Part shown: one piece after another, positions 1,421 through 64,000 of the stretch
Layout of the letters: every line of letters starts with the position of its first letter
Numbering within the stretch: position 1 is the stretch's first letter
Origin: a virus
IMG/VR virus record: IMGVR_UViG_3300045988_130745
Reading direction: 5' to 3' (one strand)
DNA: 64,000 nucleotides
Notes under the pieces: generated by a model
Seen by the model: only the letters and a program-made list of their open reading frames with translations
The model's database searches: none
Told to the model about the DNA's origin: nothing
Program-made: the position numbers and the translations under genes

Positions 1421-1626
1421 AGGGGTCTGGCTCCTCAACTAAAGAAATGCCAGGGTAGTGATGACTAAGGTTAAGAGCGCTAGATGCCCGGCTACTACCT
1501 AAAATAACAGACAGGGGAATGAGGTCGCTACGGTATCCTTTACTAATACGGTTGTGTACAGACTGTGGGTATAAAAAACAATGCCGCTAGATTGTTGATT
1601 GCTAAGTGGGGTCCTTAGCATTATAA

Positions 1627-1957: not shown

Positions 1958-2629
1958 ATGTCTATTTGCGGTATTTATAAGATAACTAATTAGATTAATG
2001 GAAAGTGTTATATTGGCTAGAGCGTAAACATTAAAAGACGCTGGTAGGAACATTATAAATTTAATTCAAGAGAATAGGATGCTGTTATTCATTAGGCTTT
2101 TAAAAAGTACGGAATAGAAAATTTTTCTTTTGAAATATTAGAAGAATGTTCCCAAAATTAGTTAGACGATTTAGAAATTAAATGGATAGCTTATTTTGAT
2201 AGTCAAAATCCAAATAAAGGATATAATTGCACATCTGGCGGGCAAGGAACTTCTTAGTGCGATATTAAACTTTCTAAAGAATAGGTTTTAAAAATTCAAG
2301 ACCTATTGATAAATTCTAGCTTATCTTAGAATGATATTGCTAAATAGTTTAATGTGAGTTATCAAACTATTTCAGATATAAATTAGGGAAAATCAAGAAT
2401 TGATGACTAGCAATTTTATCCTCTAAGAAAATGGTCAGTGCAATCAATCCCTTGTCCTTTAGATAGGGAAGATTTAAAAAGGGAAGTTTACACTAAGACT
2501 TTTGCAGAGCTTGGCAGAAGATTTTCTGTTAGACCAGAAGTTGTTTCAAAATGGTGTAAGAAATATGACCTTCCCTGCAAAAAGAAAGAAATTAATTCTA
2601 TCCCAAACGAAATTTGGGAATAGCTTTAA
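1958..2629 (+). CDS. GIY-YIG homing-endonuclease-like protein (copy a), about 12 in-frame TAG
   Basis: Translates as MSICGIYKITN[TAG]INGKCYIG[TAG]SVNIKRRW[TAG]EH, so TAG falls on conserved Gln positions. Frame is open to the TAA at 2627-2629. The ORF track shows only the last 61 aa. Confidence 0.85.
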
Positions 2630-3557: not shown

Positions 3558-3633
3558 TGACCTTTCAGATAATGGTTAGTCTAGGTGGCTCTAACCCACC
3601 ATGTCTCGGTTCGATTCCAGAGAAGGTCAGCCA
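3558..3633 (+). tRNA. amber-suppressor tRNA (anticodon CUA) with tRNA-Gln-like identity features
   Basis: Anticodon stem ggtgg/ccacc with loop CTCTAAC. Acceptor tgacctt/aaggtca gives U1-A72 and G73, as in bacterial tRNA-Gln. T loop TTCGATT, with a bulged A in the T stem. CCA encoded. Confidence 0.8.
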
Positions 3634-3637
3634 TAGC

Positions 3638-3690
3638 GAGACAGTCGCAGCAATTTATTTTGTATGGCATTTACAGAAAAAGCTGTCTTG
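3638..3690 (+). ncRNA. stem-CAGCAA element E0
   Basis: Terminal helix gagacag/ctgtctt with CAGCAA just inside the 5' strand and a 3' G. Member of a 10-copy family. Confidence 0.5.
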
Positions 3691-4606: not shown

Positions 4607-5974
4607 ATGCCGCACAGATTTAAAACATACCAAGAAGAAGTTGCGGAAGCTTTACTTCCTGTTGATTTAGTTACAAAAGGAGATTATTATTTAGGAGCTT
4701 GCCGTGAAGTAACATTTTAGATTACTAATGCCTGTAATTTAAGATGTGATTATTGCTACGAATGTAATAAAAGTTCAGAGAATATGTCTCTTGAAACTGG
4801 CAAGAAAATTTGTGATTTAATTTTAAAAGAAATAGATAAGCCAGAAGGATTTTTAGGACGAAAAACTTTAAGAGGTTTAATTCTTGAATTCATTGGTGGT
4901 GAGCCTTTGCTTTGCCCAGATTTAATTGATGGAATTATGTCTTATTTTCTGCCGCGCTTATATATAATTCGCCCTGAACTTGTTCCTTTTGTGAGAATTA
5001 GCTTAACAACTAATGGACAAAATTATTTTGATTCAAAAGTACAGAAATTTTTGAAAAAATATGAAAGCATTATTAGTCTAACTGTTTCTATTGATGGAAT
5101 AAAGGAATTACATGACGCTCATAGAGTCACAATCGACGGTAAAGGCTCTTTTGATAAGGCTATCGCAGCTTTTGAAGACGCAAAAGCACGGGGATGGAGC
5201 TATAGCAAAATGACTTTTGTTCCTCAAAGTTTTCCTTATATTGCGGATTCAATTAAATTTTTAATCAGTGAAAGTATCCAAGATATTTTTTGTAATTATG
5301 CTTATGAACCTTATTATAATCAAAAGGACGCTAAAGAATTTTATTATCAAATGAAAGAAGTAAGTGATTATTTATTTGATAATAATTTAAAAGACATTTA
5401 TATTTCTTGTCTTGATATGCTTGCGGATGGTAAAAGCTCTATGGAGGGAAATTATTGCGGTGGCACTGGTAATATGCTTTCTTTTGATATGAAAGGTAGA
5501 ACTTTTCCTTGCCTACGCTATCATCCCACCTGTCTTGGAGAAGAACTTTCAAGTACCGTTTAGCTCGGAGATTACAATGGTCTTTATCAAACTGAAGCGC
5601 AATGTAAGGCAAGAGATTGTTTAAATTGTATTACTTATAAATCTCAATCAGAACAAAAATGTATTGATTGTCCTGTTAGTTCTAATTGTGGCTGGTGCAG
5701 TGCGAATAATTTGCAAATGACTGGTTCAATTAATAAACGAGTAACTAATATTTGCTGGGCACATAAAGGAAGAGTTTTAGCTGGGTATTATTATTCTGCC
5801 AAACGTTATTTATTATGGCATGATTTTCGTCCTATGAAAATTTGTTTACCAGACGAAGATGCACTTCAAATTATTTCTCAATCTGAGTGGGATGGATTAA
5901 AAGCATTGGTAAATGAAGCAATTACTGTCTTCGAGAAAGAAAAAGACCCTCTACTTATTTCTTAGGAGGGATGA
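4607..5974 (+). CDS. radical SAM / SPASM-domain maturase A1 (anaerobic sulfatase-maturase-like)
   Basis: VTF[TAG]ITNACNLRCDYCYE gives the CxxxCxxC motif. GGEPLL is present. C-terminal CIDCPVSSNCGWC is SPASM-like. Track fragments 4784-5563 and 5711-5965 join in frame through TAG codons. TGA at 5972-5974. Confidence 0.8.
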
Positions 5975-5977
5975 TTT

Positions 5978-6625
5978 ATGAGTTTAACAAAAGGCAGTAA
6001 AGTTGAAGCTTCAGATTGGAATAATCTCGCTGATGCTTATAATTCTGAAATTGTTGATCGTCGAAAGGTAACTAACGTTAAAATCACTGGCGCGCAGATA
6101 GAATAGCAGATTAATTCTAATTCTACTATTGAGCCTTTAATTGCGGGATTGACTGCAACTACAAATGGCAGAATGGTTAATGAAGATGGTTCTTTAAGTT
6201 CTAACACTTATTCAGTTGCAAAAGGTAGAGGGACTTTGATTTATCCTCTTGAAGATCATCAAAAAGTTCTTTTACAGCTTTCTAAAATTAGTGTTTTTGC
6301 AGAGCCAGGTAAGAGCGGTTGCTACGGTAGCTGTGCTGGGTTATGTGCAAGCGGATGTATGGGCAATTGTAAAAATACTTGTACTGCGGCTTGTAAAAAC
6401 GATTGCGAGGGAACTTGTAAAACAGGTTGTACTTCATGTACCGGCACTTGTTCTGGCGGTTGTTCTAGCTGTTAGGGTGGCTGTGAAGGTTCTTGTTCTG
6501 GCGGTTGTAAAGATAGTTGTGTCCAAGAATGTAAATCAAGTTGTCATGATGCTTGTATGGGTTGCCAAAGTTCTCATGCAAGTTAGGGTTGTTCTTATTG
6601 CGAATGTGGTAATTATCCAGGGTGA
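5978..6625 (+). CDS. Cys-rich CxxxC-repeat protein (candidate maturase substrate)
   Basis: 215 aa. About 100 N-terminal residues lack Cys. Then comes a run of more than 25 Cys, mostly spaced CxxxC (CYGSCAGLCASGCMGNCKNTCTAAC...). Three in-frame TAG. TGA at 6623-6625. Confidence 0.75.
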
Positions 6626-6630
6626 TTTAT

Positions 6631-7221
6631 ATGTATCAAGATGGATATGTTACGCGCAGGGGATTTCTTCAAAAAGTTAAAGATGCTATATTTGATATAG
6701 ATATTGATGGAGAATTAAACGATTTTATTTTTAATCGTAAATGTTATGGACCATCAGATTATTCTCTCTTGCCCTTATTATTTTTAAAACTTGTGGCTTT
6801 ACGAAAAATTAATCATGTTCATCTTGAAAAAAATATCCGTTTTATTGTTGATAAAGCGGATATTTATTTTAATTTAGTTTAGCCGCAATATCACAAAGAA
6901 TTTGTTAATCAATTATCTTTATTGCTTTTATTCTTAATGCGGAGTGATAAATTAGCAATTATATTGTCTCAGAATTAGCTAATTCAAGAGATACTCAATT
7001 TTAAATTATTAAATAATTATATTATTATTTATTTTGCTTATATAGTTTTTAAAGAATTTGAAAGTGTTTATTCCTAGGGGAAATATTTAAAGTATTTCCG
7101 CGCGAAAAATCTTTCAATTATTTCTAATCAACTTTATATTTTAAATAATCATATTGAACAAGTAGAATATTTAATTTATAAAGATTATGAAGAAACTTGG
7201 ATGTGGACTTATGGTGACTAA
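6631..7221 (+). CDS. hypothetical protein (cluster A)
   Basis: ATG 6631. The frame continues through several TAG codons to the TAA at 7219-7221. Confidence 0.5.
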
Positions 7222-7540
7222 AAGAGTTTTTTAGCTAAGTGAAAAAGATAGAATTGAATTGATAAATTTAAACCATAGTATTTAGTCATATGAATAGTTT
7301 ATAGCTTTTATTACTAAATAGTTCTATTCAGACACTTGTGTTATTGAGCATAGCGTTTTAAAAGATTGGCTAATTAATTATTCCGAATAGCTGATTGCTT
7401 GGATAGAATAGAGAAATAGATTATGGGAGTCTATTAATGCTCAATTTGAATATAATATTTTGACGATTCCGAAGATTAAAAATATTTCTTATTCTATTGA
7501 TGCAGAGAAAGGAGTAATTATTTATTGTTATGAAAATTGA
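7211..7540 (+). CDS. hypothetical protein (cluster A)
   Basis: ATG 7211. 110-codon frame is open only with TAG as sense. TGA 7538-7540. Overlaps both neighbours. Confidence 0.4.
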
Positions 7541-8810
7541 AAAACGCTTTGGAGCGATGGCTAATTCTGCTTCTATTGTTTTTTAGATTACGGAATCTTG
7601 TAATTTAAATTGCTCTTATTGCTACTAGCATTTTAAAAGTCCTCGGACATTAGATTTAAATACTGCAATAAAAGAATGTCAAGAAATAATTCGGCTTCTT
7701 GAACAAGAAAATGGAATTTTAGGTAAAAATAATGTAAAAGAATTGACTATTTCTTTTATTGGCGGCGAACCATTTCTTTATCCAGAAATAATGGATATGA
7801 TAATTTAGATGTTAATGTCAGGTATCTCTATTGTAAGACCGGATTTATTACCTTTCATAAGACTTTCATTAAATACCAATGGTACACTTTTATAGAGAGA
7901 AGATGTAAAAAAATTTATTCTTAAACATGAAGATATATTAAATATTGCTCTTTCTCTTGATGGTATTAAAGAATTGCATGATAAAAATAGAATTAACCAA
8001 AAAGGAGAAGGAAGTTTTGACAAGGCTTTTAAAAATGGTTTATGGCTAAAAAAGCATGGCCTAGACCATATTAAAATGACTTTTTCAAAAGAAGATATTA
8101 ATTATATAGCTCCCTCTTTAAAATTTTTTCTTGAAAATGGTTTTAAACATATTGTCAGTACACCTATTTACGAAGACATTTATACCAAAAAAGATGCCCA
8201 ATAGGTTTATAAACAATGTAAAGAAATTGGGCAATACGTAATTAGCAATAAAATTTGGGATGAAAGAATTAGTATTCTCAACGAATACCCCGGATAGATT
8301 CTTGATTTTTCTAATTACCCTTGTGAAATTTTCGGAGATTCATTTTGTTTTTCAGTTGATGGGAAAGCATATCCATGTTGTCGTTTTGCTTCAACTTCTT
8401 TAAATAATAATTGTATAAATTATTCAATAGGAGATTGTGAGAAAGGGATTTTTAATTCAAATGATACCCTTTCGCGCGAAGAATTGAAAAAAATGACAGT
8501 CAATACTTGGATTGATAATGAATGTTTGAATTGTCCAATTTCTGGTGGCTGTGGTTGGTGTCCTGCTTATTGCGCGGAATTAGGGCAATTTGGAAAACGC
8601 ACCAAAGGTAACTGTTGGTTTCATCGTGCAAAAATTTTAGCGCTTTATAATTATAAGAATTAGCGTTCGATTATTTTAGGAGACTGTCAACCAGAGCCTA
8701 TAAAAATTCCAGAAGAAATTGCTCTTAAAATTATATCCCAAGAAGAATATGATACTTTAAAAGAGCAATATAGAAAAGCAAAAATTGCGTAGGCTTCGCG
8801 CAATAAATAA
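7530..8810 (+). CDS. radical SAM / SPASM-domain maturase A2 (paralog of A1)
   Basis: IVF[TAG]ITESCNLNCSYCY[TAG] carries TAG at the same position as in A1. GGEPFL is present. CLNCPISGGCGWCPAYC is SPASM-like. 427 codons to the TAA at 8808-8810. Confidence 0.8.
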
Positions 8811-8879: not shown

Positions 8880-9596
8880 ATGTATTTTCTTGGAGATGTT
8901 CATGCAGAATCTCCTTTAATGGAAGGTTTTCTTGAATCAAAAGAGAAATATTGCCTTCAATTAGGTGATTTCGGCTTTATTTTCAAGTATAATGATTGGA
9001 AATGGAATAAGTTTCTTAATCATTTCGCGCGAGATTATCCAGAAAAAATGATTTTCACTATTTTAGGTAATCACGAGAATTATGATTCTATTGAGAAAAT
9101 GCCAATTAAGACAATATTTGGTGCGCGGTGTAGAGAAATTCGTTCAAATGTGTACGCAGTAGAGCGTGGAGAAATCCTTTCTATTGAAGGACTGAATATT
9201 CTTTGTATTGGTGGCGCGGATTCTATTGATAAAGTATATCGAGAGCCTAAAGAATCTTGGTGGCATCAAGAAGCAATTACCAGTCAAGATGTTATTAAAA
9301 CCGTAGACAAAGGTTTAACTCATTCTTTTGATATGATTTGTTCTCATACAATGCCTGCATTTTTTATGGATAAAAAATTTGCAACGCTTTTTAACACAGG
9401 TTCAGAGTTTTCTCTTGAAAAAATTTATTGCGATATTGAAAACAATGATAAACATATTCCTTTGTGGCTTGGCGGCCACGTTCATGCTTCAATAAGTTTA
9501 TCTTATAATGATACTTTATTTCGTACTCTTAATATTGGAGAAGGAATTGAATATCGTCAAGGAGACTCAATTAAAGATAAATTTCTAATCCAATAA
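8880..9596 (+). CDS. calcineurin-like metallophosphoesterase
   Basis: GDVH, GDFG, GNHE and GGHVH motifs in canonical order. No TAG. Confidence 0.75.
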   Translation: MYFLGDVHAESPLMEGFLESKEKYCLQLGDFGFIFKYNDWKWNKFLNHFARDYPEKMIFTILGNHENYDSIEKMPIKTIFGARCREIRSNVYAVERGEILSIEGLNILCIGGADSIDKVYREPKESWWHQEAITSQDVIKTVDKGLTHSFDMICSHTMPAFFMDKKFATLFNTGSEFSLEKIYCDIENNDKHIPLWLGGHVHASISLSYNDTLFRTLNIGEGIEYRQGDSIKDKFLIQ

Positions 9597-9885: not shown

Positions 9886-9914
9886 TTGACTTTCTATGAA
9901 TGTTATGATATAAT
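9886..9914 (+). promoter_or_regulatory. family promoter
   Basis: TTGACT 9886-9891 and TATAAT 9909-9914. Drives E1 and tRNA-Leu. Confidence 0.75.
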
Positions 9915-9930
9915 ATTTATAGAAACTTGA

Positions 9931-9989
9931 GAGACGATTACAGCAAGATTTAAACATAATGCTGTGAACTTATGGAAAAAATCGTCTCG
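9931..9989 (+). ncRNA. stem-CAGCAA element E1
   Basis: Helix gagacgatt/aatcgtctc, CAGCAA after the 5' strand, inner hairpin acagca/tgctgt, 3' G then TTTT. Confidence 0.5.
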
Positions 9990-10295: not shown

Positions 10296-10374
10296 TTAAA
10301 TCTTTCCGAAACGGCGAGGGTCGTAGCGAATTATCTAAACGTAGCCAACGTTTTCTGGCGGCACAGGAAAGATT

Positions 10375-10455
10375 AAGACACATTTCAGCAAATTTTAATT
10401 ACCTTGCCATGTTTAAGGTATCCGACATTGCCGGATTTTATTATTTAGTGTCTTG
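10375..10455 (+). ncRNA. stem-CAGCAA element E2, in the 5' leader of the DUF2828/vWA gene
   Basis: Helix aagacac/gtgtctt and TTTCAGCAAA. Ends 27 nt before the ATG at 10482. Confidence 0.5.
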
Positions 10456-10481
10456 AGTTCCTCAAGAGAAAGGAAGAATAT

Positions 10482-11972
10482 ATGAATAAGTTTGTAAATG
10501 CTATTTCCAATGAGGCTTCTCTTAATGGTTCTGCGAAGTTGACCGAGAATGGTGCAATTGCTCGCTCTACCACTGGGGATTGTCTGCTTGATTTTTATGC
10601 GGTTTCTGGTGCGTTGCGTACTCGCAGTGAAGCTGATATTTTGAGTCTCTTTAAGAAGGCTTGGAATGAGAATCCTCTGTATGCGCTGAAGACTGTGTTT
10701 ATGACTCGTGATATTCGCGGTGGACGTGGAGAGCGTCGTACTGCTCGTATCATTCTGAAGTATCTGGCAGATGTCGCGCCGCAGACTGTTATCAAGAACT
10801 TTGATAATATCATGGAGATGGGTCGTGCTGATGACTTTTATGAGTTCGTTGGCACTTCTGTCGAATCTGCTATGTGGCAGTATTTGCGTAATCAGATTGT
10901 TGAAGACTTGAAGAATATGCGTGCGGAGAAGCCTATTTCTTTGACCGCAAAGTGGCTGAAGTCTATTAACACTTCTTCTAAGGAGTCTCGTGCGCTTGGT
11001 CGTAAGACTGCTCGTGCGCTTGGCCTGACCGAACGTGAATATCGTAAGACTCTTTCTCGGCTGCGTAATTACCTCAAGGTTGTTGAGGTAAAGATGTCTG
11101 CTGGCGAGTGGACCGATATTGATTATGCTGCGGTGCCTGCTGTAGCGATGAATCGTTATCGTAAGGCTTTTAAGCGTCATAATCCTTCTGCTTTCGATAC
11201 TTATATCGAAAAGGTCGAAAAGGGTGAAGAGAAGATTAATGCTTCTACTTTGTATCCTTATGACCTGGTAGAAAAGATTATGCAGAACAATAGCTACTGG
11301 TCTACTGATGTTAAGGAAGACCCCGTTATTGAAGCTCAGTGGAAGGCTTTGCCCAACTACATTGAGGGTGAGAATAACGTGCTGGTTATGGCTGACGTAA
11401 GTGGTTCTATGTATGGTCGTCCTATGGCTACTTCTGTTGGCTTGGCAATTTATTTTGCCGAGCGCAATAAGGGTGCTTTTAAGAACACTTACATGACCTT
11501 TACTAACTGTCCTCATTATATCCAGATTCAGCCTGGTCAGACTCTGGCGGAAAAGGTTGAAGCCGTGATGCGTACTGATGTCGGTTATAGCACTAATTTG
11601 GAGCGTGCATTTATGCAGGTTCTGGATACTGCCGTGATGAATCGTGTACCTCAGAAGGATATGCCTAAGGCAATGGTGGTTATTTCCGACATGGAAATTG
11701 ATCGCTACTTCCGTGGACAGGGACTTGATTTCGTGTCTGAGATGGTCCGTCGTTTCCGCGCGGCTGGCTATCAGATGCCTCGTCTGGTTCTTTGGAACGT
11801 ACAGGCTCGTTCCAACACTTTCCACGCCAACTCTACTAATCCTTATGTTACTTTTGCGAGTGGGCAGGGTGTTGCGGAGTTTAAGAATGTGTTGGCCGGC
11901 ATTTCTCTTGACGCTTATGCAGCAATGATGAAGGCTTTGGATGACGAGCGTTATGCTTCTGTTGTCCTGTAA
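10482..11972 (+). CDS. DUF2828-like protein with C-terminal vWA domain (TROVE/Ro60-like architecture)
   Basis: 496 aa. N-terminal helical region contains NPLYALKTVFMTRDIRGGRGERR. C-terminal MADVSGSM fits a DxSxS MIDAS motif. No TAG. Clearly higher GC than its neighbours. Confidence 0.7.
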   Translation: MNKFVNAISNEASLNGSAKLTENGAIARSTTGDCLLDFYAVSGALRTRSEADILSLFKKAWNENPLYALKTVFMTRDIRGGRGERRTARIILKYLADVAPQTVIKNFDNIMEMGRADDFYEFVGTSVESAMWQYLRNQIVEDLKNMRAEKPISLTAKWLKSINTSSKESRALGRKTARALGLTEREYRKTLSRLRNYLKVVEVKMSAGEWTDIDYAAVPAVAMNRYRKAFKRHNPSAFDTYIEKVEKGEEKINASTLYPYDLVEKIMQNNSYWSTDVKEDPVIEAQWKALPNYIEGENNVLVMADVSGSMYGRPMATSVGLAIYFAERNKGAFKNTYMTFTNCPHYIQIQPGQTLAEKVEAVMRTDVGYSTNLERAFMQVLDTAVMNRVPQKDMPKAMVVISDMEIDRYFRGQGLDFVSEMVRRFRAAGYQMPRLVLWNVQARSNTFHANSTNPYVTFASGQGVAEFKNVLAGISLDAYAAMMKALDDERYASVVL

Positions 11973-12065: not shown

Positions 12066-12094
12066 TTGACTTTTTATGATTTCTATGATATAAT
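12066..12094 (+). promoter_or_regulatory. family promoter
   Basis: TTGACT 12066-12071 and TATAAT 12089-12094. Confidence 0.75.
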
Positions 12095-12111: not shown

Positions 12112-12296
12112 AGATGGATTCAGCAATTAAAGTTTTTTAGATATAAATTATTATTTTAATTGTACAGATTTAGCTATTTTCTCGGTGAAATTTGGACATT
12201 TCATTTAGAGGTTGCTGTCAAGATGTTCTTATAGCTAAATCACCGCGCGGTACTTTTAACTTTTAACTTTTAACTTTTAACTTTTAATCCATCTAG
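12112..12296 (+). ncRNA. stem-CAGCAA element E3 (long variant)
   Basis: Helix agatggatt/aatccatct, which covaries relative to other copies. CAGCAA follows the 5' strand. Contains a 7-mer tandem repeat. Confidence 0.45.
12253..12287 (+). repeat. tandem repeat (CTTTTAA) x5
   Basis: Five perfect head-to-tail 7-nt units, read directly. Confidence 0.9.
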
Positions 12297-12390: not shown

Positions 12391-12528
12391 AAGACGATTT
12401 CAGCAAATAATTTTTAAATATAATTAATAGCGTAGGGCTAGCAGTTATTGGTTCGAATCCAATCGACCCCACTTGAGGGGTTGTAGCTTAATTGGCAAAG
12501 CGGCTAATAAATTATTGATGTCGTCTTG
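12391..12528 (+). ncRNA. stem-CAGCAA element E4 enclosing a circularly permuted tRNA-like module
   Basis: Order: helix 5' strand aagacga, CAGCAA, small hairpin, T arm attgg-TTCGAAT-ccaat, acceptor 3' strand cgacccc, 6-nt loop, acceptor 5' strand ggggttg, D arm gctt-aattggca-aagc, helix 3' strand tcgtctt. There is no anticodon loop. Confidence 0.5.
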
Positions 12529-12534
12529 TTTTAT

Positions 12535-12625
12535 ACTCCCTTATCTCAACGGTAGAGAAGCGGACTTATAACCCGTATTAGCACCAGATTAGTGCATGAT
12601 GTCCGTTCGAATCGGACAGGGAGTA
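12535..12625 (+). tRNA. type-II-like tRNA with UAU anticodon (identity ambiguous)
   Basis: Acceptor actccct/agggagt, anticodon loop CTTATAA, 24-nt variable arm with a gcac/gtgc stem, T arm gtccg-TTCGAAT-cggac. No encoded CCA. Confidence 0.55.
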
Positions 12626-12632
12626 TTTATAT

Positions 12633-12708
12633 CGGGGATTAGCGCAGTTGGTAGCGTACTTGATTTGGGATCAAGGGGTCGCGAGTTCGAGTCTCGCATC
12701 TTCGACCA
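12633..12708 (+). tRNA. tRNA-Pro (UGG)
   Basis: Anticodon stem cttga/tcaag with loop TTTGGGA, T loop TTCGAGT, CCA encoded. Confidence 0.85.
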
Positions 12709-12793
12709 TTAGGGAAGCGCTGAGTAGCTACAGCGAGACTAAGGTGCCTTCACACCGGCCTTATATTTTATTTATTCTGAAGGAGAATAAATT

Positions 12794-13588
12794 ATGTATA
12801 ATCCTATTTGTGGTATTTATAAAATTACTAATTTGATTAATGGACATTGCTATATTGGGCAAAGTAGGAATATTAAGAAACGATGGGAAGAGCATCGAAC
12901 TAGAGCTTTTAATATTAAAGATGATGGATATAATTATCCTCTTTATAAAAGTTTTAGAAAATATGGTCTTTAGAACTTTTCTTTTGAAATAATTGAGCAA
13001 TGCTCAGAAAAGTAGTTAAACGAAAAAGAAAATTATTGGATTTAGTTTTATTAGGCAAATTATAATTAGACTATTGGACAAGATTATTAGGTAGTTCCTA
13101 AAAAATTAACAATAGAGGAAGTACAAGAAATACAAAATTACTTAATTGAAAGTTCAAATGATTCTTTAGATATTTCATTAAAATAGTTGGCAGAAAATTA
13201 TCATGTTTCTTAGCTTACTATTCGAGATATTAATGTAGGACGTTCTTGGGCTAATAGTAAATTAAAATATCCTTTGTACCAATCTAAATATAATCCGAAT
13301 AATAAAATAACTAATAACTATTGTCCTATTTGCGGATAGAAAATTTCTTAGAAAGCTAAATTTTGTCCTCAGTATTATTCAACTATAAATATCAGTCCTC
13401 GAAAAAGTAAAATTAATATCACAAGAGAAGAATTAAAAAGACGAATTAGAATAGAATCTTTTTCTTAGATAAGCAAAGATTTTAATGTTAGTGATAATGG
13501 TATAAGAAAGAAATGCCAAAAGCTAAATCTTCCTTATCGTAAGAAAGATATAGATACTTATTCTGATGAAGAATGGGCAAAACTTTAA
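12794..13588 (+). CDS. GIY-YIG homing-endonuclease-like protein (copy b)
   Basis: MYNPICGIYKITNLINGHCYIGQS... 265 codons are open only with TAG as sense (many TAG). C-terminus resembles copies a, c and d. Conserved leader upstream. Confidence 0.85.
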
Positions 13589-13611
13589 GAGGTTTTACCT
13601 CTTTTATATTG

Positions 13612-13688
13612 CGGGATGTAGCAGTAGTTCGCTAACGGGTCTCATAAGCCCGTGTAGGCCGTGAGCATAACCGGCTCCCGCATCCAAT
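13612..13688 (+). tRNA. tRNA with CAU anticodon (Met, fMet or Ile2)
   Basis: Acceptor tgcggga/tcccgca, D stem tagc/gcta, anticodon loop CTCATAA, CCA encoded. T arm is non-canonical. Confidence 0.6.
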
Positions 13689-13833
13689 AAAACCTTCGTT
13701 AAAACAACTCTCTAAACCTTTGGGTCTACGGTAGTGCTTTGACGGAAGCCTAGGTTAAGCGTAATGAGTTGACGAGACCTAGTTAATTACAGATAAGCCA
13801 GCGGGTTTCTGCGAAGGTCACCCGCAATCATAC

Positions 13834-13909
13834 GGGTATAGCTCAGTTGGTAGAGCATCTGGCTTACATCCAGAAGGTCAACAGTTCAAGCCTGTTTATC
13901 CGTTCCATT
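13834..13909 (+). tRNA. tRNA-Val (UAC)
   Basis: Acceptor acgggta/tatccgt, D arm agctcagttggtagagc, anticodon loop CTTACAT, T loop TTCAAGC, CCA encoded. Confidence 0.85.
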
Positions 13910-13913
13910 AGAG

Positions 13914-14000
13914 ACACATTTAAAACAGCAATTATTTTTGGTTAAAATACTAATCTGATAAATTGGTTAAGCAGTTCAAATCTGTAAGTTGTGTCTTGTT
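13914..14000 (+). ncRNA. stem-CAGCAA element E5 (contains one T-arm-like hairpin)
   Basis: Helix agacaca/tgtgtct, CAGCAA, internal gcag-TTCAAAT-ctgt hairpin, 3' TG then TTTT. Confidence 0.45.
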
Positions 14001-14004
14001 TTGC

Positions 14005-14093
14005 GGAGTGAACCAGTCGGGGAACTGGGTACGCCTGCTAAGCGTTACGACAGAGAGATCTGTTTGGGGTCGGCACCCACGCTCCGCGCCATA
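14005..14093 (+). tRNA. tRNA-Ser (GCU), type II
   Basis: Acceptor gcggagt/gctccgc, anticodon loop CTGCTAA, variable-arm hairpin acaga-gaga-tctgt, CCA encoded. T loop GTCGGCA is atypical. Confidence 0.7.
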
Positions 14094-14096
14094 AGC

Positions 14097-14173
14097 ATCT
14101 ATAGGCAAATTGGCAAAGCCGGCACATTTAGGATGTGCTGTTTAAGAGTTCAAGTCTCTTTGGATGCACCAAT
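14097..14173 (+). tRNA. tRNA with UAG anticodon (Leu by anticodon), short variable region
   Basis: Acceptor gcatcta/tggatgc, anticodon stem gcaca/tgtgc with loop TTTAGGA, T loop TTCAAGT, CCA encoded. Shares its D arm with tRNA(CAA) at 1343. Confidence 0.7.
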
Positions 14174-14241
14174 AGTCATATAATTGAAACGGAAATGGGC
14201 ATAAGTCGGAAATGGTTGATATTTTATGACTTTTTAATAAA

Positions 14242-14358
14242 GACGATTGCAGCAATAATTCTTAACAAGAATTTATCATCGGTTCAACTCCGATATTACC
14301 CGCCATTAAACAGAGTAATTAGCTCAATTGGTAGAGCGCTTCTTTTAATCGTCTTGAA
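14242..14358 (+). ncRNA. stem-CAGCAA element E6 enclosing a circularly permuted tRNA-like module
   Basis: Perfect 9-bp helix aagacgatt/aatcgtctt and GCAGCAA. Then hairpin aattctt-aac-aagaatt, T arm atcgg-TTCAACT-ccgat, acceptor 3' strand attaccc followed by GCCA, loop, acceptor 5' strand gagtaat, and D arm agctcaattggtagagc. Confidence 0.5.
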
Positions 14359-14398
14359 ATTGAATAATTCTAGTCAGACAATAACAGCTACCCAACGT

Positions 14399-14467
14399 CA
14401 GGATAGTGTAGAGGTTAGCACGCTGTGAAAGACCAGTATCCTGGGTTCGAATCCCAGTCCTGAGGAA
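14399..14467 (+). tRNA. tRNA-like gene with truncated or aberrant anticodon arm (possible pseudo-tRNA)
   Basis: Good D arm (gtgt-agaggtta-gcac), T arm (ctggg-TTCGAAT-cccag) and acceptor. The anticodon arm is 3-4 nt too short, with a loop near TGAAAGAC. No CCA. Confidence 0.4.
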
Positions 14468-14498
14468 ACGTACATTGTCTAGTTGAAAGGTATCTTAA

Positions 14499-31215: not shown

Positions 31216-31335
31216 ATGGGTACTTTATCTAGGGGGGGGGCTACAATGCCCTTACCTCGTTGTGTACATTTGGAAACGAACGGCTTAATCATTAGTTTGA
31301 CTTTTCTTTCTATTGATGGTATAATAAAATAGTAA
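31216..31335 (+). CDS. short ORF with a G9 tract after a conserved MG-x-L-S-R start
   Basis: MGTLSRGGG... shares its start with the two poly-C genes downstream. May be a remnant or a leader. Confidence 0.3.
31232..31240 (+). repeat. homopolymer G9
   Basis: Read directly from the sequence. Confidence 0.9.
31297..31325 (+). promoter_or_regulatory. family-like promoter
   Basis: TTGACT 31297-31302, 17-nt spacer, TGGTATAAT. Confidence 0.6.
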
Positions 31336-31357: not shown

Positions 31358-31757
31358 ATGGGTAATATTCCAAGAACTACCCCCCCCCCCCGATACATCA
31401 TTAAGTCTATCGGGAGTGGCGGCAGATTCTAAAATAGTTGGCGATTAGATTTCAAATTTAACATCATCTTTAGATACTAAATTTTTTTCATCTGAAATTC
31501 CTGCTAATTCGACTTTAACCTAGTCGTTTGACAAATTACGTTATGGACATGGGCAATGCGGTTCTGTTTATCTGTCTGCATCAAATGGCGTGCCGGCTTC
31601 ATGGTATTGGTATATTTACATACCTCATCGAGATGGTGGCAATGTTAGTGGCAGCGATAATATGCAATATGGTGTTTTAATCTTAATTGATTTTTGGTCA
31701 AATGCTTTTTATATCGCACGTTATACAAATGGCACAATTAATGTCCGTTCAATTTAA
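31358..31757 (+). CDS. tail-module protein interrupted by a C12 tract (out of frame as sequenced)
   Basis: ATG 31358 gives MGNIPRTT then the poly-C tract. The long downstream frame (DTSLSLSGVAADSKIVGD... to the TAA at 31755-31757) is in another phase. C11 or C14 would fuse the two. Confidence 0.5.
31380..31391 (+). repeat. homopolymer C12
   Basis: Read directly from the sequence. Confidence 0.9.
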
Positions 31758-45104: not shown

Positions 45105-45881
45105 ATGAAAGATGTAATAGGAATTTATAAAATCACAAATTAGATTTCTGGGAAAGTCTATATCGGGTAGTCTAGGCATATCCATAAAAGATGGCAGGAA
45201 CATTGTTAGCCTTCTTCAGATTCAGTTATTTCAAGAGCTATTAAAAAGTACGGTCAAGAAAATTTTACTTTCGAAATAATTGAAGAATGCCCGTTAGAAT
45301 CGTTAAATGAGAGAGAAGAATTTTATATTAAAAAATATAATTCTTGTGTACCTAATGGCTATAATGTTATGTCTTCTTCAAATGGAATCTAGTCTAAATT
45401 CTTTCTTTTAGAAGAAAAGCAACTAGATAAAGTAATTTAGTTTTTACAAGCTGATGATAAAACCTATTCTCAGATTGCTGATTTAACTGGTTTAGATATT
45501 TCTACTATTTCAAGAATTAATAATGGCGAAATTCATTATAATGAGAATCTTTCTTATCCTATTTCAAAGAGAGATGCTGGTAAATGGTTAAAAGTAAATC
45601 ATTATTGCATTGATTGCGGTACACCCATTTGTCGATAGGCGATCCGTTGTAAAAAATGTAATGTTATATTTTTAACTAAAAATAAAATTTCTAGTCCAAG
45701 ACTTGAATGTCCAGCAAGAGAAATTTTAAAACAGGAAGTATTTTCTTTACCTTTAGAAGCGGTTGGAAGAAAATATGGAGTAACTGGTAGTGCAGTTAAA
45801 AAATGGTTGGGAAAATATAATTTGCCAACTCGGAAAAGTGATATTTCATCTTATTCAAAAGAAGAATGGGATAAATTATAA
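45105..45881 (+). CDS. GIY-YIG homing-endonuclease-like protein (copy c)
   Basis: MKDVIGIYKITN[TAG]ISGKVYIG[TAG]SRHIHKRWQEH. 259 codons with several TAG. Starts 13 nt after tRNA-Cys. Confidence 0.8.
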
Positions 45882-47658: not shown

Positions 47659-47725
47659 AAGACAGAAGCAGCAAAATACTTACAATCAGAACTTAAAATT
47701 CTAATATTGGTAAGAAGCTGTCTTG
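47659..47725 (+). ncRNA. stem-CAGCAA element E7a
   Basis: Helix aagacag/ctgtctt, AAGCAGCAAA, 3' G. Confidence 0.5.
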
Positions 47726-47747: not shown

Positions 47748-47817
47748 AAGACGATTTCTGCAAAACTTTTGATGTTTTAACAATATGGATGATAAAACAA
47801 AATGAAAAATCGTCTTG
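47748..47817 (+). ncRNA. stem-CAGCAA element E7b (CTGCAA variant)
   Basis: Perfect helix aagacgatt/aatcgtctt, TCTGCAAA, 3' G. Confidence 0.45.
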
Positions 47818-55848: not shown

Positions 55849-55850
55849 AA

Positions 55851-62215: not shown

Positions 62216-62338
62216 AAGACCATCACAGCATCTGAAATTGGCTTGTAACCCGCTTGTCGTCGAGTTCGATTCTCGACAGTATCTTCTCTTAAATGGGAAC
62301 ACTTAGCTCAGTGGTAGAGCAGCGTATTGTTGGTCTTG
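62216..62338 (+). ncRNA. stem-CAGCA element E8 enclosing a circularly permuted tRNA-like module
   Basis: Helix aagacca/tggtctt and CACAGCA. T arm gtcgag-TTCGATT-ctcgac, imperfect acceptor tcttctc / loop ttaaat / gggaaca, canonical D arm tagctcagtggtagagca. Confidence 0.45.
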
Positions 62339-63382: not shown

Positions 63383-64000
63383 ATGCTAACTTTAAATGGC
63401 AAATATGGTTCCGCGCGAGTTTATACCGATTTGATTGAGCAAGAAGCTATTGCACAGATTATTGAGATGCTGAATCAGTCCTTTGCAGAAAATGCAAATG
63501 TGGCTATTATGCCCGATGTTCATGCCGGCGCTGGTTGTACCATTGGTACTACTATGCGAATTTCTGATTGCGTTGTCCCGAATCTGGTTGGCGTGGACAT
63601 TGGTTGTGGTATGATTTGTGCAAAGCTTACTCATTTGCATAAAGAAGAAGTCGATTTTGAAAAATTGGATAAGGTTATTCGAGAGCATATCCCTTCTGGT
63701 ATGTCTATCCGCGATAAAATGGTTAATATTAAAATGTCTAATCGCGCGGGTGTCAACGCAAAAGATTGGGCAAATCAACTTCATCAACTGAAATGTTGGG
63801 ACGCAATCAAAACTAAAGAAGATTACTTTTTGAAGTCTATTGACACTCTTGGAGGTGGCAATCACTTTATTGAAATGAATGTTGATGAAGATAATCAATG
63901 TTATCTTGTTGTTCATTCTGGCTCTCGTAATCTTGGTATTCAGGTTTGCAAATATTACCAGAAATTAGCTGAAACTGATTACCAAAAGGCTTGTAGCAAA
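63383..64000 (+). CDS. rtcB: RtcB-family RNA 3'-phosphate ligase (5' part, runs off the window)
   Basis: MLTLNGKYGSARVYTDLIEQEAIAQI...AIMPDVHAGAGCTIGTT...PNLVGVDIGCGM...GGGNHFIE are hallmark RtcB motifs. The track shows only a spurious antisense ORF here. Confidence 0.85.
   Translation, partial: MLTLNGKYGSARVYTDLIEQEAIAQIIEMLNQSFAENANVAIMPDVHAGAGCTIGTTMRISDCVVPNLVGVDIGCGMICAKLTHLHKEEVDFEKLDKVIREHIPSGMSIRDKMVNIKMSNRAGVNAKDWANQLHQLKCWDAIKTKEDYFLKSIDTLGGGNHFIEMNVDEDNQCYLVVHSGSRNLGIQVCKYYQKLAETDYQKACSK

What the first reader, a model, noticed from the sequence alone, without database searches (positions are those of the whole stretch)
12391..14358. Circularly permuted tRNA-like modules closed by the family helix (Y-RNA/YrlA-like layout, or permuted tRNA genes)
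- Inside elements E4 (12391-12528), E6 (14242-14358) and E8 (62216-62338) the order is: helix strand, small hairpin, canonical T arm (TTCGAAT, TTCAACT or TTCGATT loops), acceptor 3' strand, short closing loop, acceptor 5' strand, canonical D arm with the GG dinucleotide, helix strand.
- This is a complete tRNA elbow and acceptor stem in permuted order. The family helix takes the place of the anticodon stem, and there is no anticodon loop.
- E6 even keeps GCCA after the acceptor 3' strand.
- Bacterial Y RNAs (YrlA) are known to have this architecture, a tRNA-like domain attached to a protein-binding stem. They partner with Ro60-type (TROVE plus vWA) proteins and often sit beside rtcB.
- This window encodes a helical-plus-vWA protein with a family element in its own leader, and also an RtcB.
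- The alternative is true permuted tRNA genes matured by cleavage and RtcB ligation, which would be unprecedented for a phage.
Basis: partly seen in the sequence, partly recalled or inferred. Interest (0 to 1): 0.9.

Follow-up and report, generated by a model that had tools for sequence, protein, structure and literature searches.

The report
Phage tRNA-like RNAs with Ro-protein handle
These three elements are tRNA-derived small RNA genes written in scrambled (circularly permuted) order, each carrying a conserved extra "handle" arm found next to a Ro60-like ring protein gene in hundreds of phages, so they are most likely that protein's long-missing partner RNAs rather than working tRNAs.

Summary
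E4, E6 and E8 each run handle strand, small hairpin, T arm, acceptor 3' strand, linker, acceptor 5' strand, D arm, handle strand. E6 encodes GCCA.

The shared "family helix" is a 7-9 bp stem followed by single-stranded (U/A)ACAGCAA. The window holds at least 11 copies, all on the + strand; shuffles give about 0.1.

One correction: the small hairpin is the remnant of the anticodon arm. The handle is an extra arm inserted at tRNA positions 26-29.

The gene at 10482-11972 (Pfam DUF2828 plus a vWA-like domain) models as a Ro60 ring. Handle elements lie beside its homologues in gut phages and in Bacillus, Listeria, Mycobacterium and Felix-O1-like phages. In other clades the same RNA occurs in normal tRNA order.

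All three elements hit Rfam YrlA only below threshold and lack its GNCGAA motif.

Once the handle is cut out in silico, they are called as tRNAs. However, anticodon loops drift or vanish between orthologues, so a decoding role is unlikely.

Verdict: a new variant of Y-RNA/YrlA-type tRNA mimics. True permuted tRNA genes remain a minority possibility.

The parts
12391..12527 (+). E4, a permuted tRNA-like handle RNA. In order: handle 5' strand AAGACGAU, UUCAGCAA motif, spacer, split anticodon arm (UAG-CGUAGGG-CUAGC, completed by G27 C28 after the D arm), T arm, closed 7-bp acceptor stem, D arm, spacer, handle 3' strand.
   Evidence: Sequence read. Fold z-score -3.3. Rfam YrlA 32.8 bits. Model R1 65.1 bits. 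Close relatives show compensatory changes in the split stem. After in-silico handle removal ARAGORN calls a tRNA with anticodon UAG.
14240..14355 (+). E6, a permuted tRNA-like handle RNA. In order: handle, UGCAGCAA motif, 7-bp hairpin, T arm, acceptor 3' strand, encoded GCCA, 7-nt linker, acceptor 5' strand, D arm, U-rich spacer, handle.
   Evidence: Sequence read. Fold z-score -3.05. YrlA 25.3 bits. R1 77.2 bits. Orthologues L011, L012, L013, L014 and L026 keep GCCA (close relatives L001 and L003 have ACCA), while the acceptor stem, D stem and hairpin covary.
62216..62337 (+). E8, a permuted tRNA-like handle RNA. Handle AAGACCA/UGGUCUU, CACAGCAU motif, split anticodon arm with the Thr-like loop CUUGUAA, T arm, imperfect closed acceptor stem, D arm.
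   Evidence: YrlA 24.7 bits. R1 30.8 bits. Relative L099 has three changes in the acceptor 5' strand that keep or improve pairing. After handle removal ARAGORN calls tRNA-Thr(UGU).
10482..11972 (+). Gene for a Ro60-fold protein (Pfam DUF2828 plus DUF7788/vWA-like), the proposed binding partner of the handle.
   Evidence: Pfam PF11443 (162 bits) and PF25043 (108 bits). AlphaFold2 model with pLDDT 90.8. The top nine Foldseek PDB hits are all Ro60/TROVE (9kop, 9l5y, 2i91, 1yvr, 1yvp; E 1e-9 to 1e-7, TM 0.5-0.6).
10373..10456 (+). Short handle element (AAGACACAU-UUCAGCAA ... GUGUCUUG) in the leader of the Ro-like gene.
   Evidence: A handle element sits in the same position in nearly all homologous loci.
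9931..9988 (+). Short handle element, the first thing transcribed from the consensus promoter at 9886-9914. tRNA-Leu(UAA) follows.
   Evidence: (z-score -4.4).
12112..12294 (+). Long handle element (AGAUGGAU-UCAGCAA ... AUCCAUCUAG) just after the promoter at 12066-12094. It contains an (ACTTTTA)x5 repeat.
13912..13996 (+). Handle element enclosing a degenerate tRNA-like body in standard order, with an Ile-like CUGAUAA loop.
   Evidence: Rfam tRNA 25.8 bits, below the 29-bit gathering score.
14376..14480 (+). Handle (AGACAAU ... AUUGUCU, AACAGCUA motif) formed by the leader and trailer of a tRNA-like gene in standard order with an abnormal anticodon loop.
   Evidence: Rfam tRNA 40.6 bits at 14397-14465. 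ARAGORN does not call it.
3637..3690 (+). Short handle element directly after the suppressor tRNA(CUA) at 3558-3633.
47659..47724 (+). Short handle element just after the promoter at 47615-47643. It has an anticodon-loop-like hairpin (CUUAAAA).
47749..47815 (+). Short handle element (AAGACGAUU-UCUGCAA ... AAUCGUCUUG) upstream of tRNA-Asn.
   Evidence: (z-score -3.05).
63383..64000 (+). RtcB RNA ligase gene, N-terminal half only; it runs off the window end.
   Evidence: HSGSR motif. Pfam PF01139, 114.8 bits.
8880..9596 (+). Calcineurin-like phosphoesterase gene. It keeps its position upstream of the Ro-like gene in relatives and may heal RNA ends.
   Evidence: Pfam Metallophos. The same neighbour is present in L011, L012 and L014. 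The function is inferred.

Best explanation
E4, E6 and E8 belong to a large family of phage non-coding RNAs built from two modules.

**Module 1, the handle.** A 7-9 bp helix with a conserved GAC/GUC core and covarying outer and inner pairs, then single-stranded (U/A)ACAGCAA on the 5' strand side and a 3' overhanging G. I infer that this is the docking site for the phage's Ro60-fold ring protein (10482-11972).

**Module 2, the cargo.** In these three elements the cargo is a whole tRNA body: D arm, T arm, acceptor stem and a more or less decayed anticodon arm. The handle enters the body at positions 26-29.

**Gene order.** In this phage clade the gene is circularly permuted. The handle is open and its strands are the two ends of the element. 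The acceptor stem is closed by a 5-7 nt linker. In other clades the identical architecture is written in normal tRNA order with the handle closed by a 3-8 nt loop.

**Inferred steps**
- The RNAs are co-transcribed with the tRNA arrays from the phage's consensus promoters.
- RNase P and 3' trimming open the acceptor linker. E6's conserved GCCA becomes a mature 3' end. This parallels M. smegmatis YrlA and two-piece tmRNA.
- The result is a two-piece tRNA mimic held together by the handle and bound by the Ro-like protein.
- The particle then acts on tRNA or RNA metabolism during infection, in RNA repair or surveillance with RtcB or in counter-defence, rather than in decoding.

**Shown here:** the structures, their covariation, the permutation between clades, the Ro60 fold, and the genomic linkage.

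**Inferred only:** protein binding, processing and function.
For: **Real structured family**
- 10 strict copies on the + strand, 0 on the - strand, about 0.1 expected in shuffles.
- Across 79 non-redundant loci the motif [TA]ACAGCAA occurs 224 times on the gene strand and 39 times on the opposite strand.
- 57% of the gene-strand copies are closed by a helix from the arm just upstream. The figure is 8% on the opposite strand and 14% with shuffled arms.

**tRNA-like core**
- 95.6% of cells paired, 12 of 16 pairs with changes on both sides, all 7 acceptor pairs covary.

**Resemblance to YrlA**
- YrlA is the only non-tRNA Rfam family hit, and all three elements hit it.

**Protein**
- The model has a Ro60 fold.

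**Linkage to the Ro-like gene**
- A handle element lies 5-170 nt upstream of the gene in most viral loci down to 45% identity.
- In bacterial MAG or prophage loci, 54 of 80 have one upstream against 2 of 80 for the antisense control.
- Handle elements are also present beside the gene in Bacillus phage Tsamsa, Listeria phage 20422-1 (with RtcB 1.3 kb downstream), Mycobacterium phage AvadaKedavra (YrlA 39.8 bits) and Felix-O1-like phage EC6.
- In L059, L061, L064 and L090 the handle 3' strand lies between the Shine-Dalgarno sequence and the ATG of the Ro-like gene. That is an autoregulatory layout.

**Same RNA in standard order**
- 57 of 96 closed-handle loci have a matching 7-bp acceptor partner and a D arm upstream. 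The control gave 9 of 480.

**Non-decoding**
- The E4 anticodon loop differs at 5 of 7 positions between roughly 98% related genomes, while the stem changes compensate.
- E6 orthologues have 3-5 nt loops.
- Orthologues L087 and L088 differ in the loop.
- E4 with anticodon UAG lacks the long variable arm of a bacterial tRNA-Leu.

**Literature**
- YrlA RNAs lie within 4 kb of Ro60 on the same strand. M. smegmatis YrlA is cut by RNase P and receives CCA (PMC4201824).
- Phage phiLo Ro60 binds phage-encoded Y-like RNAs (PMC12135203).
- In the Felix-O1-like phage Bas63 the Ro60-like gp130 sits upstream of the tRNA genes, counters the Ppl defence system, and was only guessed to use tRNA-like Y RNAs (PMC11482910).
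Against: - No binding, expression or processing data exist. The link between handle and protein rests on synteny and analogy.
- Scores against YrlA are well below its gathering score, and the YrlA and metazoan Ro-binding motif (GNCGAA / GGUCCGA) is absent.
- By sequence profile the protein shows no relation to Ro60 chains in the PDB. The similarity is at fold level only.
- Several handle elements lie 35-50 kb from the Ro-like gene (3.6, 47.7 and 62.2 kb). Some enclose or follow ordinary-looking tRNAs, which would also suit a cis-acting processing signal.
- After in-silico excision of the handle, E4, E6, E8 and relatives such as L003 and L113 give clean cloverleaves. A precursor-tRNA role therefore cannot be excluded.
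Confidence: 0.55

Rival explanations
1. True permuted or interrupted tRNA genes. The handle arm is an intervening sequence. An unknown endonuclease cuts at its base and the phage RtcB joins positions 28|29, passing through a circular intermediate for permuted genes. RNase P and 3' processing then open the acceptor linker and release functional decoding tRNAs. This would be a phage counterpart of the archaeal and algal intron / split / permuted tRNA triad.
For: - After rotation and removal of the handle arm, ARAGORN at default settings calls E4 as tRNA(UAG), its L003 orthologue as tRNA-Pro(UGG), E8 as tRNA-Thr(UGU), E6 as tRNA-Val(AAC), and the L113 leader element as a perfect tRNA-Thr(UGU).
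- The split anticodon stem of E4 is kept by two compensatory changes.
- All 39 standard-order units tested become callable tRNAs with diverse anticodons once a 29-57 nt insert is deleted. That test was permissive.
- The same insertion point occurs in standard-order and permuted genes.
- RtcB is encoded in the window.
- E6 keeps GCCA across clades (close relatives L001 and L003 have ACCA).
Against: - Simple circularisation gives no tRNA.
- No BHB motif is seen at the junction, and no splicing endonuclease was found among the proteins scanned.
- Anticodon loops are not under decoding constraint. E4 has CGUAGGG (with G33) where near-identical genomes have UUUGGGA. E6 orthologues have GAAA, AAGGA or UAAAU loops. 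L087 and L088 differ.
- E4(UAG) has a short variable loop, which is incompatible with bacterial tRNA-Leu.
- E6 would carry an A34 Val anticodon and has an A-C mismatch in its acceptor stem. The E8 acceptor stem has two mismatches.
- Intact tRNA-Pro(UGG), tRNA-Thr(UGU) and tRNA-Val(UAC) genes sit beside these elements.
- Many family members carry no tRNA part at all.
Confidence: 0.15
2. The handle is a cis-acting punctuation, processing or stability element of the polycistronic tRNA-array transcripts. A host or phage nuclease or chaperone other than the Ro-like protein recognises it. The tRNA-like bodies it flanks are incidental. The Ro-like gene is nearby only because it sits in the tRNA region.
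For: - Elements sit directly after tRNA CCA ends or directly after promoters.
- Some handles are formed by the leader and trailer of standard-order tRNAs (window 14376-14480; L011 12523-12639 around tRNA-Val(CAC)).
- Copies occur far from the Ro-like gene.
Against: - A handle lies upstream of the Ro-like gene even where no tRNA is nearby (L015, L016).
- The linkage is kept from Actinobacteria phages to Firmicutes and Enterobacteria phages.
- The helix is too short (7-9 bp) for RNase III.
- The covarying, permutation-tolerant tRNA body points to a folded functional RNA, not just a cleavage signal.
Confidence: 0.15
3. Non-functional debris. These are decaying tRNA pseudogenes produced by tandem duplication and deletion, or by homing-endonuclease-driven rearrangement. 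The handle would be the inverted repeat of a small selfish insertion (MITE-like) that targets tRNA genes.
For: - Three GIY-YIG homing endonuclease genes lie in the tRNA arrays.
- Anticodon loops and the E8 acceptor stem are degenerate.
- The terminal inverted repeat looks superficially like the ends of a transposable element.
Against: - Compensatory changes maintain the stems.
- GCCA in E6 is invariant across the 56-66% identity clades.
- ACAGCAA is conserved on one strand only, 224 versus 39 copies.
- The position upstream of one particular gene is conserved across phyla.
- No target-site duplications were seen.
Confidence: 0.07

Closest known systems
YrlA, the bacterial tRNA-like Y RNA (Rfam RF02553; Chen et al. 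2014, PMC4201824), partner of the Ro60 orthologue Rsr and often found in rsr-yrlBA-rtcBA operons
   Same: - The 5' and 3' ends pair into a stem carrying the presumed protein site.
- The rest of the RNA is a tRNA mimic with canonical T and D arms and an acceptor-like stem closed by a loop.
- It is encoded near a Ro60-fold protein on the same strand, with RtcB in the neighbourhood.
- Shorter cargo-less paralogues exist, comparable to YrlB.
- M. smegmatis YrlA has a 7-bp acceptor stem, is cut by RNase P and receives CCA. E6's encoded GCCA parallels this.
   Different: - Scores are 25-33 bits against the 69-bit gathering score.
- The GNCGAAN0-1G motif is absent, and a different invariant motif (ACAGCAA after a GAC/GUC helix) takes its place.
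- The partner protein is DUF2828, not Pfam TROVE.
- The handle is an extra arm at positions 26-29 beside a retained anticodon arm, not an extension of the anticodon stem.
- There are at least 11 copies per 64 kb, embedded in tRNA arrays.
- The same RNA occurs in permuted and non-permuted gene orders.
Phage Ro60 systems: Thermus phage phiLo Ro60 with Yrl1/Yrl2 (PMC12135203), and Felix-O1-like phage Bas63 gp130 (PMC11482910)
   Same: - A phage-encoded Ro60-fold protein has candidate Y-like RNAs encoded next to it.
- Bas63 gp130 lies directly upstream of the tRNA array, as in phage EC6 here. Its authors speculated that some of the annotated tRNAs are Y RNAs.
   Different: - phiLo Ro60 is a canonical TROVE protein whose RNAs carry the CGAA motif and no tRNA body.
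- For Bas63 no RNA was identified. The handle elements defined here are concrete candidates.
- That Bas63 gp130 is the orthologue of the EC6 DUF2828 protein is inferred from taxonomy and gene position. It was not checked here.
Circularly permuted tRNA genes of red and green algae and Thermofilum (Soma et al. 2007), related to archaeal non-canonical introns and split tRNAs. This comparison rests on my own knowledge.
   Same: - The 3' half lies upstream of the 5' half and the acceptor strands are joined by a short linker.
- The flanks pair with each other.
- Related genomes carry the same tRNA body interrupted at the same position in normal gene order.
- An RtcB-type ligase is available.
   Different: - The junction does not reconstitute a tRNA unless a 40-60 nt arm is removed.
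- No BHB motif and no splicing endonuclease were found.
- The anticodon is not conserved.
- The flanking helix carries its own conserved sequence motif and also exists without any tRNA part.
Two-piece (circularly permuted) tmRNA of alpha-proteobacteria and cyanobacteria (Rfam RF04321). This comparison rests on my own knowledge.
   Same: It is a bacterial precedent for a permuted tRNA-like domain. The segment linking the CCA 3' end to the 5' acceptor strand is excised, which leaves a two-chain RNA.
   Different: - No tag reading frame, no pseudoknots and no alanine identity.
- The Rfam hit is only 15.2 bits against a gathering score of 47.
- ARAGORN finds no tmRNA.

Membership tests
YrlA / bacterial Y RNA (Rfam RF02553) | Reaches the Rfam gathering score (69 bits) | tested here: not met
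   E4 scores 32.8 bits, E6 25.3 and E8 24.7. The metazoan Y_RNA model gave no hit at E <= 10.
YrlA / bacterial Y RNA (Rfam RF02553) | Conserved 5' motif GNCGAAN0-1G, the presumed Ro60 contact (PMC4201824) | tested here: not met
   Some window copies read GACGAUU, but relatives read GGCGCAU, GACACUU, GAUGCUU and so on. The invariant motif is (U/A)ACAGCAA instead.
YrlA / bacterial Y RNA (Rfam RF02553) | tRNA-like domain with T arm, D arm and a closed acceptor-like stem | tested here: met
   U8, A14, G18G19, the UUCRAnU T loop and G53-C61 are present. Covariation of all three helices was shown.
YrlA / bacterial Y RNA (Rfam RF02553) | Encoded within about 4 kb of a Ro60 orthologue, on the same strand | tested here: met
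   E4 starts 419 nt and E6 2.3 kb downstream of the gene's end, on the same strand. E8 is 50 kb away. The linkage is conserved. Caveat: the protein is related to Ro60 by fold, not by the Pfam TROVE model.
YrlA / bacterial Y RNA (Rfam RF02553) | Bound by the Ro60 protein | not testable with these tools
   Needs RIP or EMSA experiments.
Ro60 / TROVE proteins (for the 10482-11972 product) | HEAT-repeat ring plus C-terminal vWA domain fold | tested here: met
   AlphaFold2 model with pLDDT 90.8 and pTM 0.90. The top nine Foldseek PDB hits are Ro60/TROVE over about 515-560 columns with TM 0.5-0.6.
Ro60 / TROVE proteins (for the 10482-11972 product) | Sequence-level match to TROVE or to Ro60 chains | tested here: not met
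   Pfam gives DUF2828 plus DUF7788 only. A profile search of PDB sequences finds no Ro60 chain.
Circularly permuted tRNA genes | 3' half upstream of 5' half, with complementary acceptor strands joined by a short linker | tested here: met
   E4 pairs 7/7, E6 6/7, and E8 is imperfect.
Circularly permuted tRNA genes | Joining the ends reconstitutes a complete cloverleaf with a 7-nt anticodon loop | tested here: inconclusive
   Plain circularisation fails. After an additional 40-60 nt handle arm is removed, ARAGORN calls all three.
Circularly permuted tRNA genes | BHB splice motif formed by the flanks | tested here: not met
   By inspection the flanks form a 7-9 bp helix followed by a one-sided ACAGCAA segment. 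There are no paired 3-nt bulges separated by 4 bp.
Circularly permuted tRNA genes | Anticodon and identity elements conserved among orthologues, as expected for a decoding tRNA | tested here: not met
   The E4 loop is CGUAGGG where close relatives have UUUGGGA. E6 orthologues have 3-5 nt loops. ARAGORN does not call L012 after splicing.
Circularly permuted tRNA genes | Circular RNA intermediate and a ligated mature tRNA | not testable with these tools
   Needs RNA-seq or RT-PCR on infected cells.
HDV-like theta ribozymes of recoded gut phages (PMC10879173) | Nested double-pseudoknot fold with the cleavage site abutting a tRNA 3' end | tested here: not met
   The context is the same, directly after tRNA CCA ends. 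However, the handle pairs the first and last segments of the element, which does not fit the HDV P1/P2 topology. No HDV-family Rfam hit appeared at E <= 10. No dedicated descriptor search was run.

The most novel reading that the evidence does not exclude
The handle arm is a new kind of bacterial or phage tRNA intervening sequence. Phages of Firmicutes, Actinobacteria and Enterobacteria would then carry interrupted and circularly permuted tRNA genes. These would be matured by excision of the handle, possibly guided by the Ro60-like protein, followed by RtcB ligation. For permuted genes such as E4, E6 and E8 this would pass through a circular intermediate. That would be a viral counterpart of the archaeal and algal intron / split / permuted tRNA system, possibly used to gate tRNA supply during infection.
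Probability: 0.12. Interest if true: 0.95.

Novelty: new variant of a known kind. Interest (0 to 1): 0.7.

Why it matters
**How widespread the protein is**
- Ro60-like DUF2828 proteins occur in at least 692 sequenced isolate phages, including Felix-O1-like coliphages, Listeria P100-like phages, Bacillus Tsamsa-like phages, 70-76 kb Bron-like mycobacteriophages, and Enterococcus, Staphylococcus, Campylobacter and Vibrio phages.
- They also occur in thousands of metagenomic phages.
- No partner RNA has been described for them.
- One member, Bas63 gp130, was recently shown to counter a bacterial defence system. Its authors could only guess that "some tRNA genes" might be Y RNAs (PMC11482910).

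**What this finding adds**
- It supplies a concrete, searchable RNA signature: a GAC/GUC helix followed by ACAGCAA, with tRNA-derived cargo.
- That signature makes the idea directly testable in tractable model phages.

**Wider points**
- The same structured RNA tolerates circular permutation of its gene.
- tRNA bodies appear to be repeatedly recruited as cargo, which bears on how tRNA mimics evolve.
- Unannotated, odd-looking "tRNAs" in phage tRNA arrays may belong to this class.

Tried and rejected
- **Rfam at gathering thresholds** found only tRNAs. At E <= 10 the only relevant non-tRNA family was YrlA, below threshold.
- **ARAGORN on rotated, circularised elements** gave nothing without introns. 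With the intron option it gave arbitrary calls. Plain end-joining therefore does not make a tRNA.
- **E6's small hairpin as an anticodon arm.** I first read it this way (possible loop UUAACAA). I rejected it because orthologues have GAAA, AAGGA and UAAAU loops on 6-7 bp stems.
- **A second UAGC/GCUA pairing in E4** as an "anticodon-stem-like" helix, which is how cmscan aligned it. I rejected it because relatives lose it and instead keep the split-stem register by compensatory change.
- **Profile search of PDB sequences** with the protein alignment found no Ro60. Only the fold search did.
- **First regex attempts to find standard-order units** were mis-registered. They were replaced by the acceptor-partner search.
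- **Model R1 also scores junctions between adjacent ordinary tRNAs** at about 20-38 bits. Only hits above roughly 43 bits, or hits with no overlapping tRNA, were used.
- **Ochrobactrum phage vB_OspM_OC** has a DUF2828 homologue annotated as Ro sixty-related. Its upstream region shows no clear ACAGCAA handle.
- **Two reviews on bacterial Y RNAs** and the supplements of Chen et al. 2014 were not available.
- **A guessed accession for Bas63** turned out to be a different phage.
- **HDV-like, RNase III-site and MITE readings** were considered and rejected on topology, helix length and strand asymmetry.

Full report
**Setting**

The window comes from a phage that reads TAG as a sense codon.
- Treating TAG as coding raises + strand ORF content from 9,378 to 16,378 codons.
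- A suppressor tRNA(CUA) sits at 3558-3633.
- The window carries 28 or more tRNA genes in several arrays.
- It also has about 20 copies of one consensus promoter, TTGACTTT...TATAAT-ATTTATAGAAA, all on the + strand.
- Close relatives are roughly 110-180 kb IMG/VR contigs.
- More distant relatives of the key protein lie in gut and rumen Bacillota MAGs.

**Checking the observation**

All three elements have the stated order of parts at the stated coordinates.

| Element | Fold z-score | Acceptor pairing | Other |
|---|---|---|---|
| E4 | -3.3 | 7/7 | |
| E6 | -3.05 | 6/7 | GCCA follows the acceptor 3' strand |
| E8 | -1.2 | imperfect | |

- It is a 7-9 bp helix with a GAC/GUC core.
- Single-stranded (U/A)ACAGCAA follows on the 5' side, and there is a 3' overhanging G.
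- A strict scan finds 10 copies on the + strand, none on the - strand, and 0-1 in shuffles. With 13912-13996 that makes at least 11 copies.

A test that does not presuppose the helix gives the same answer.
- Across 79 non-redundant related loci, [TA]ACAGCAA occurs 224 times on the gene strand and 39 times on the other strand.
- The 7 nt just upstream find a complementary partner within 190 nt in 57% of gene-strand cases.
- The figures are 8% on the opposite strand and 14% after shuffling the arm.

**The tRNA-like core is a conserved structure**

I built a covariance model of T arm, closed acceptor stem and D arm. It recovered 17 unambiguous elements from divergent phages.
- On their alignment 95.6% of cells pair.
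- 12 of 16 pairs show changes on both sides, including all seven acceptor pairs.
- Sliding the partner columns drops pairing to 26-53%.

E6 has clear orthologues in lineages whose Ro-like protein is only 56-66% identical: L011, L012, L013, L014 and L026.
- The acceptor stems are completely different in sequence but still pair.
- The D stems and small hairpins covary.
- The GCCA after the acceptor 3' strand is invariant in those lineages. Close relatives L001 and L003 have ACCA.

**Correcting the anatomy**

The "small hairpin" is what remains of the anticodon arm.
- **E4.** G27 C28 lie just after the D arm and G26. U29 A30 G31 lie just before the loop. Together they pair with C39-C43.
  - Close relatives have G27 U28 plus CAG pairing with CUGAC, which is two compensatory changes.
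  - Their loop is UUUGGGA, identical to the loop of the phage's own tRNA-Pro. The window has CGUAGGG.
- **E8.** GC plus UGG pairs with CCCGC (4 of 5 pairs) around CUUGUAA, a canonical Thr(UGU) loop.
- **E6.** The hairpin is self-contained, so the handle enters at 26/27.

The handle is therefore an extra arm inserted at positions 26-29. It is not a substitute for the anticodon stem.

**The same RNA occurs unpermuted**

In the clades whose protein is 45-50% identical, the handle is a closed hairpin (nGUCAUG-loop-GUGACn) followed by ACAGCAA. It sits between a D arm and an anticodon hairpin plus T arm in normal tRNA order.
- 57 of 96 such loci have a perfect 7-bp acceptor partner and a D arm at the right distance upstream. 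Controls with a shuffled acceptor strand gave 9 of 480.
- The window's elements are thus circular permutations of a widespread architecture. Here the handle loop is opened and the acceptor end is closed by a linker.

Other family members carry different cargo:
- no cargo at all;
- an anticodon-like hairpin alone;
- a T arm alone;
- a handle formed by the leader and trailer of a whole tRNA.

**The protein**

- The 10482-11972 product matches Pfam DUF2828 and DUF7788.
- A confident AlphaFold2 model (pLDDT 90.8) has Ro60/TROVE structures as its nine best PDB matches. These include Ro60 of Thermus phage phiLo and Xenopus Ro60, and the matches cover the whole chain.
- Sequence profiles alone do not find Ro60.

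**Linkage between handle and protein**

- A handle element lies 5-170 nt upstream of the gene in most viral loci examined, down to 45% identity. Often there are two or three in tandem.
- It is present even where no tRNA is nearby (L015, L016).
- In bacterial genome contigs, 54 of 80 loci have one against 2 of 80 for the antisense control. By eye, several of the "none" cases carry variants.
- Homologues of the protein occur in 692 isolate phage records. Handle elements sit beside the gene in four that I inspected:
  - Bacillus phage Tsamsa (two copies);
  - Listeria phage 20422-1 (three in tandem, with RtcB 1.3 kb downstream);
  - Mycobacterium phage AvadaKedavra (three, one a permuted tRNA-like element scoring 39.8 bits on YrlA);
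  - Felix-O1-like phage EC6 (four in the tRNA array just downstream, one permuted).
- In four loci the handle's 3' strand lies between the Shine-Dalgarno sequence and the start codon of the Ro-like gene, which is an autoregulatory layout.
- In the window, RtcB starts at 63383.
- A calcineurin-like phosphoesterase keeps its place upstream of the Ro-like gene in relatives.
- Other relatives carry Rnl1, kinase-like and PTH2 genes close by.

**Y-like RNA or precursor tRNA?**

The outcome is mixed.
- Plain circularisation fails.
- Once the handle arm is also removed at the split-stem junction, ARAGORN at default settings makes these calls:

| Construct | ARAGORN call |
|---|---|
| E4 (window) | tRNA with anticodon UAG |
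| E4 orthologue in L003 | tRNA-Pro(UGG) |
| E8 | tRNA-Thr(UGU) |
| E6 | tRNA-Val(AAC) |
| L113 leader element | flawless tRNA-Thr(UGU) |

The bodies are therefore complete tRNAs. Several points still argue that those in this window do not decode.
- The E4 loop differs at 5 of 7 positions between genomes about 98% related, while the stems are maintained.
- Its UAG version has G33 and a short variable loop, unlike any bacterial tRNA-Leu.
- The E6 hairpin has 3-5 nt loops in all other clades, and L012 is not callable.
- The E8 acceptor stem has mismatches.
- Orthologues L087 and L088 differ in the loop.
- Intact tRNA-Pro, tRNA-Thr and tRNA-Val genes sit alongside.
- No BHB motif or splicing endonuclease was seen.

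I therefore favour tRNA mimics whose bodies were recruited from tRNAs. I keep the precursor-tRNA reading as a live minority view.

**Comparison with what is known**

- Chen et al. 2014 (PMC4201824) defined YrlA. It has a terminal stem with GNCGAAN0-1G and a tRNA-like domain, and it lies within 4 kb of a TROVE-annotated Ro60 on the same strand.
  - They found it in 254 bacteria and 22 phages.
  - M. smegmatis YrlA is cut by RNase P and has CCA added.
- PMC12135203 shows that a phage Ro60 binds phage-encoded Y-like RNAs and the host exoribonuclease PNPase.
- PMC7824862 notes ROT/TROVE proteins in jumbo phages.
- PMC11482910 reports that Bas63 gp130 is Ro60-like, lies upstream of the tRNA genes and counters the Ppl defence system. 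Its authors speculate that some tRNA genes are Y RNAs.
- None of these papers describes the ACAGCAA handle, the DUF2828 pairing or the permutation.
- A full-text search for DUF2828 returned only unrelated papers.

I therefore class the finding as a new variant of a known kind.

**Limits**

Binding, expression, processing and function are all inferred. That Bas63 gp130 is the orthologue of the EC6 protein is inferred from taxonomy and gene position, not tested. The reverse test was not feasible with the tools available. That test asks whether handles occur in phages that lack the protein.

Noticed in passing
window 3558-3633 and genome-wide: TAG is read as a sense codon. ORF content nearly doubles when TAG is treated as coding, and a suppressor tRNA(CUA) is encoded. 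A handle element (3637-3690) follows that tRNA directly.
   Followed up: partly
window 1958-2629, 12794-13588, 45105-45881: Three paralogous GIY-YIG homing-endonuclease genes lie inside the tRNA arrays. Each has 6-13 in-frame TAG codons, so they would be translated only once the suppressor tRNA is active.
   Followed up: partly
window, 20 sites, e.g. 1047-1075, 9886-9914, 12066-12094, 47615-47643: A highly uniform promoter-like motif, TTGACTTT-N-(T)ATG(C/A)TATAAT followed by ATTTATAGAAA, occurs on the + strand only. Three copies fire straight into handle elements.
   Followed up: partly
window 1421-1560 and 13688-13830: Two copies of an unassigned structured-looking segment share GGTAGTG...GAC...AGGTTAAG.GCG. 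Each follows a tRNA or tRNA-like gene. There was no Rfam hit at E <= 10 for the second copy. It may be a ribozyme or processing element.
   Followed up: no
window 13611-13687: A tRNA-Met(CAU)-like sequence with an aberrant 10-nt T loop is missed by both ARAGORN and Rfam. Relatives L005 and L009 carry a canonical tRNA at the corresponding place.
   Followed up: no
window 12534-12626: tRNA-Ile(UAU) carries a roughly 21-nt insertion in the variable region, giving it a long extra arm that is unusual for an Ile tRNA.
   Followed up: no
window 62621-62697: ARAGORN calls a tRNA with an undetermined two-base "anticodon" (cc). Rfam tRNA scores it at 49.4 bits. The anticodon loop geometry is odd.
   Followed up: no
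window 12251-12288: A perfect (ACTTTTA)x5 tandem repeat lies inside the long handle element 12112-12294.
   Followed up: no
window 4607-8810 and 55824-60636: Two or three radical-SAM (SPASM-like) enzymes, a very Cys-rich 215-aa protein (5978-6625) and a YcaO-domain protein (59239-60474) together look like a peptide-modification (RiPP-like) gene set in a phage.
   Followed up: no
window about 31370-31390: A run of 12 C residues sits just inside the start of an ORF downstream of the promoter at 31297-31325. It could be a slippage or phase-variation site.
   Followed up: no
L029, L038, L048, L069, L083 (upstream of the Ro-like gene): Many short handle elements carry a hairpin with a canonical anticodon-type loop, CUUUUAA (Lys-like) or CUGUUAA (Asn-like). 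These are the anticodon loops targeted by known anticodon nucleases, so they may act as decoys.
   Followed up: no
L013 4696-4818: A permuted element has an intact Phe(GAA) anticodon arm placed after the D arm. The break point is therefore between the anticodon arm and the variable region, a different permutation point from E4, E6 and E8.
   Followed up: partly
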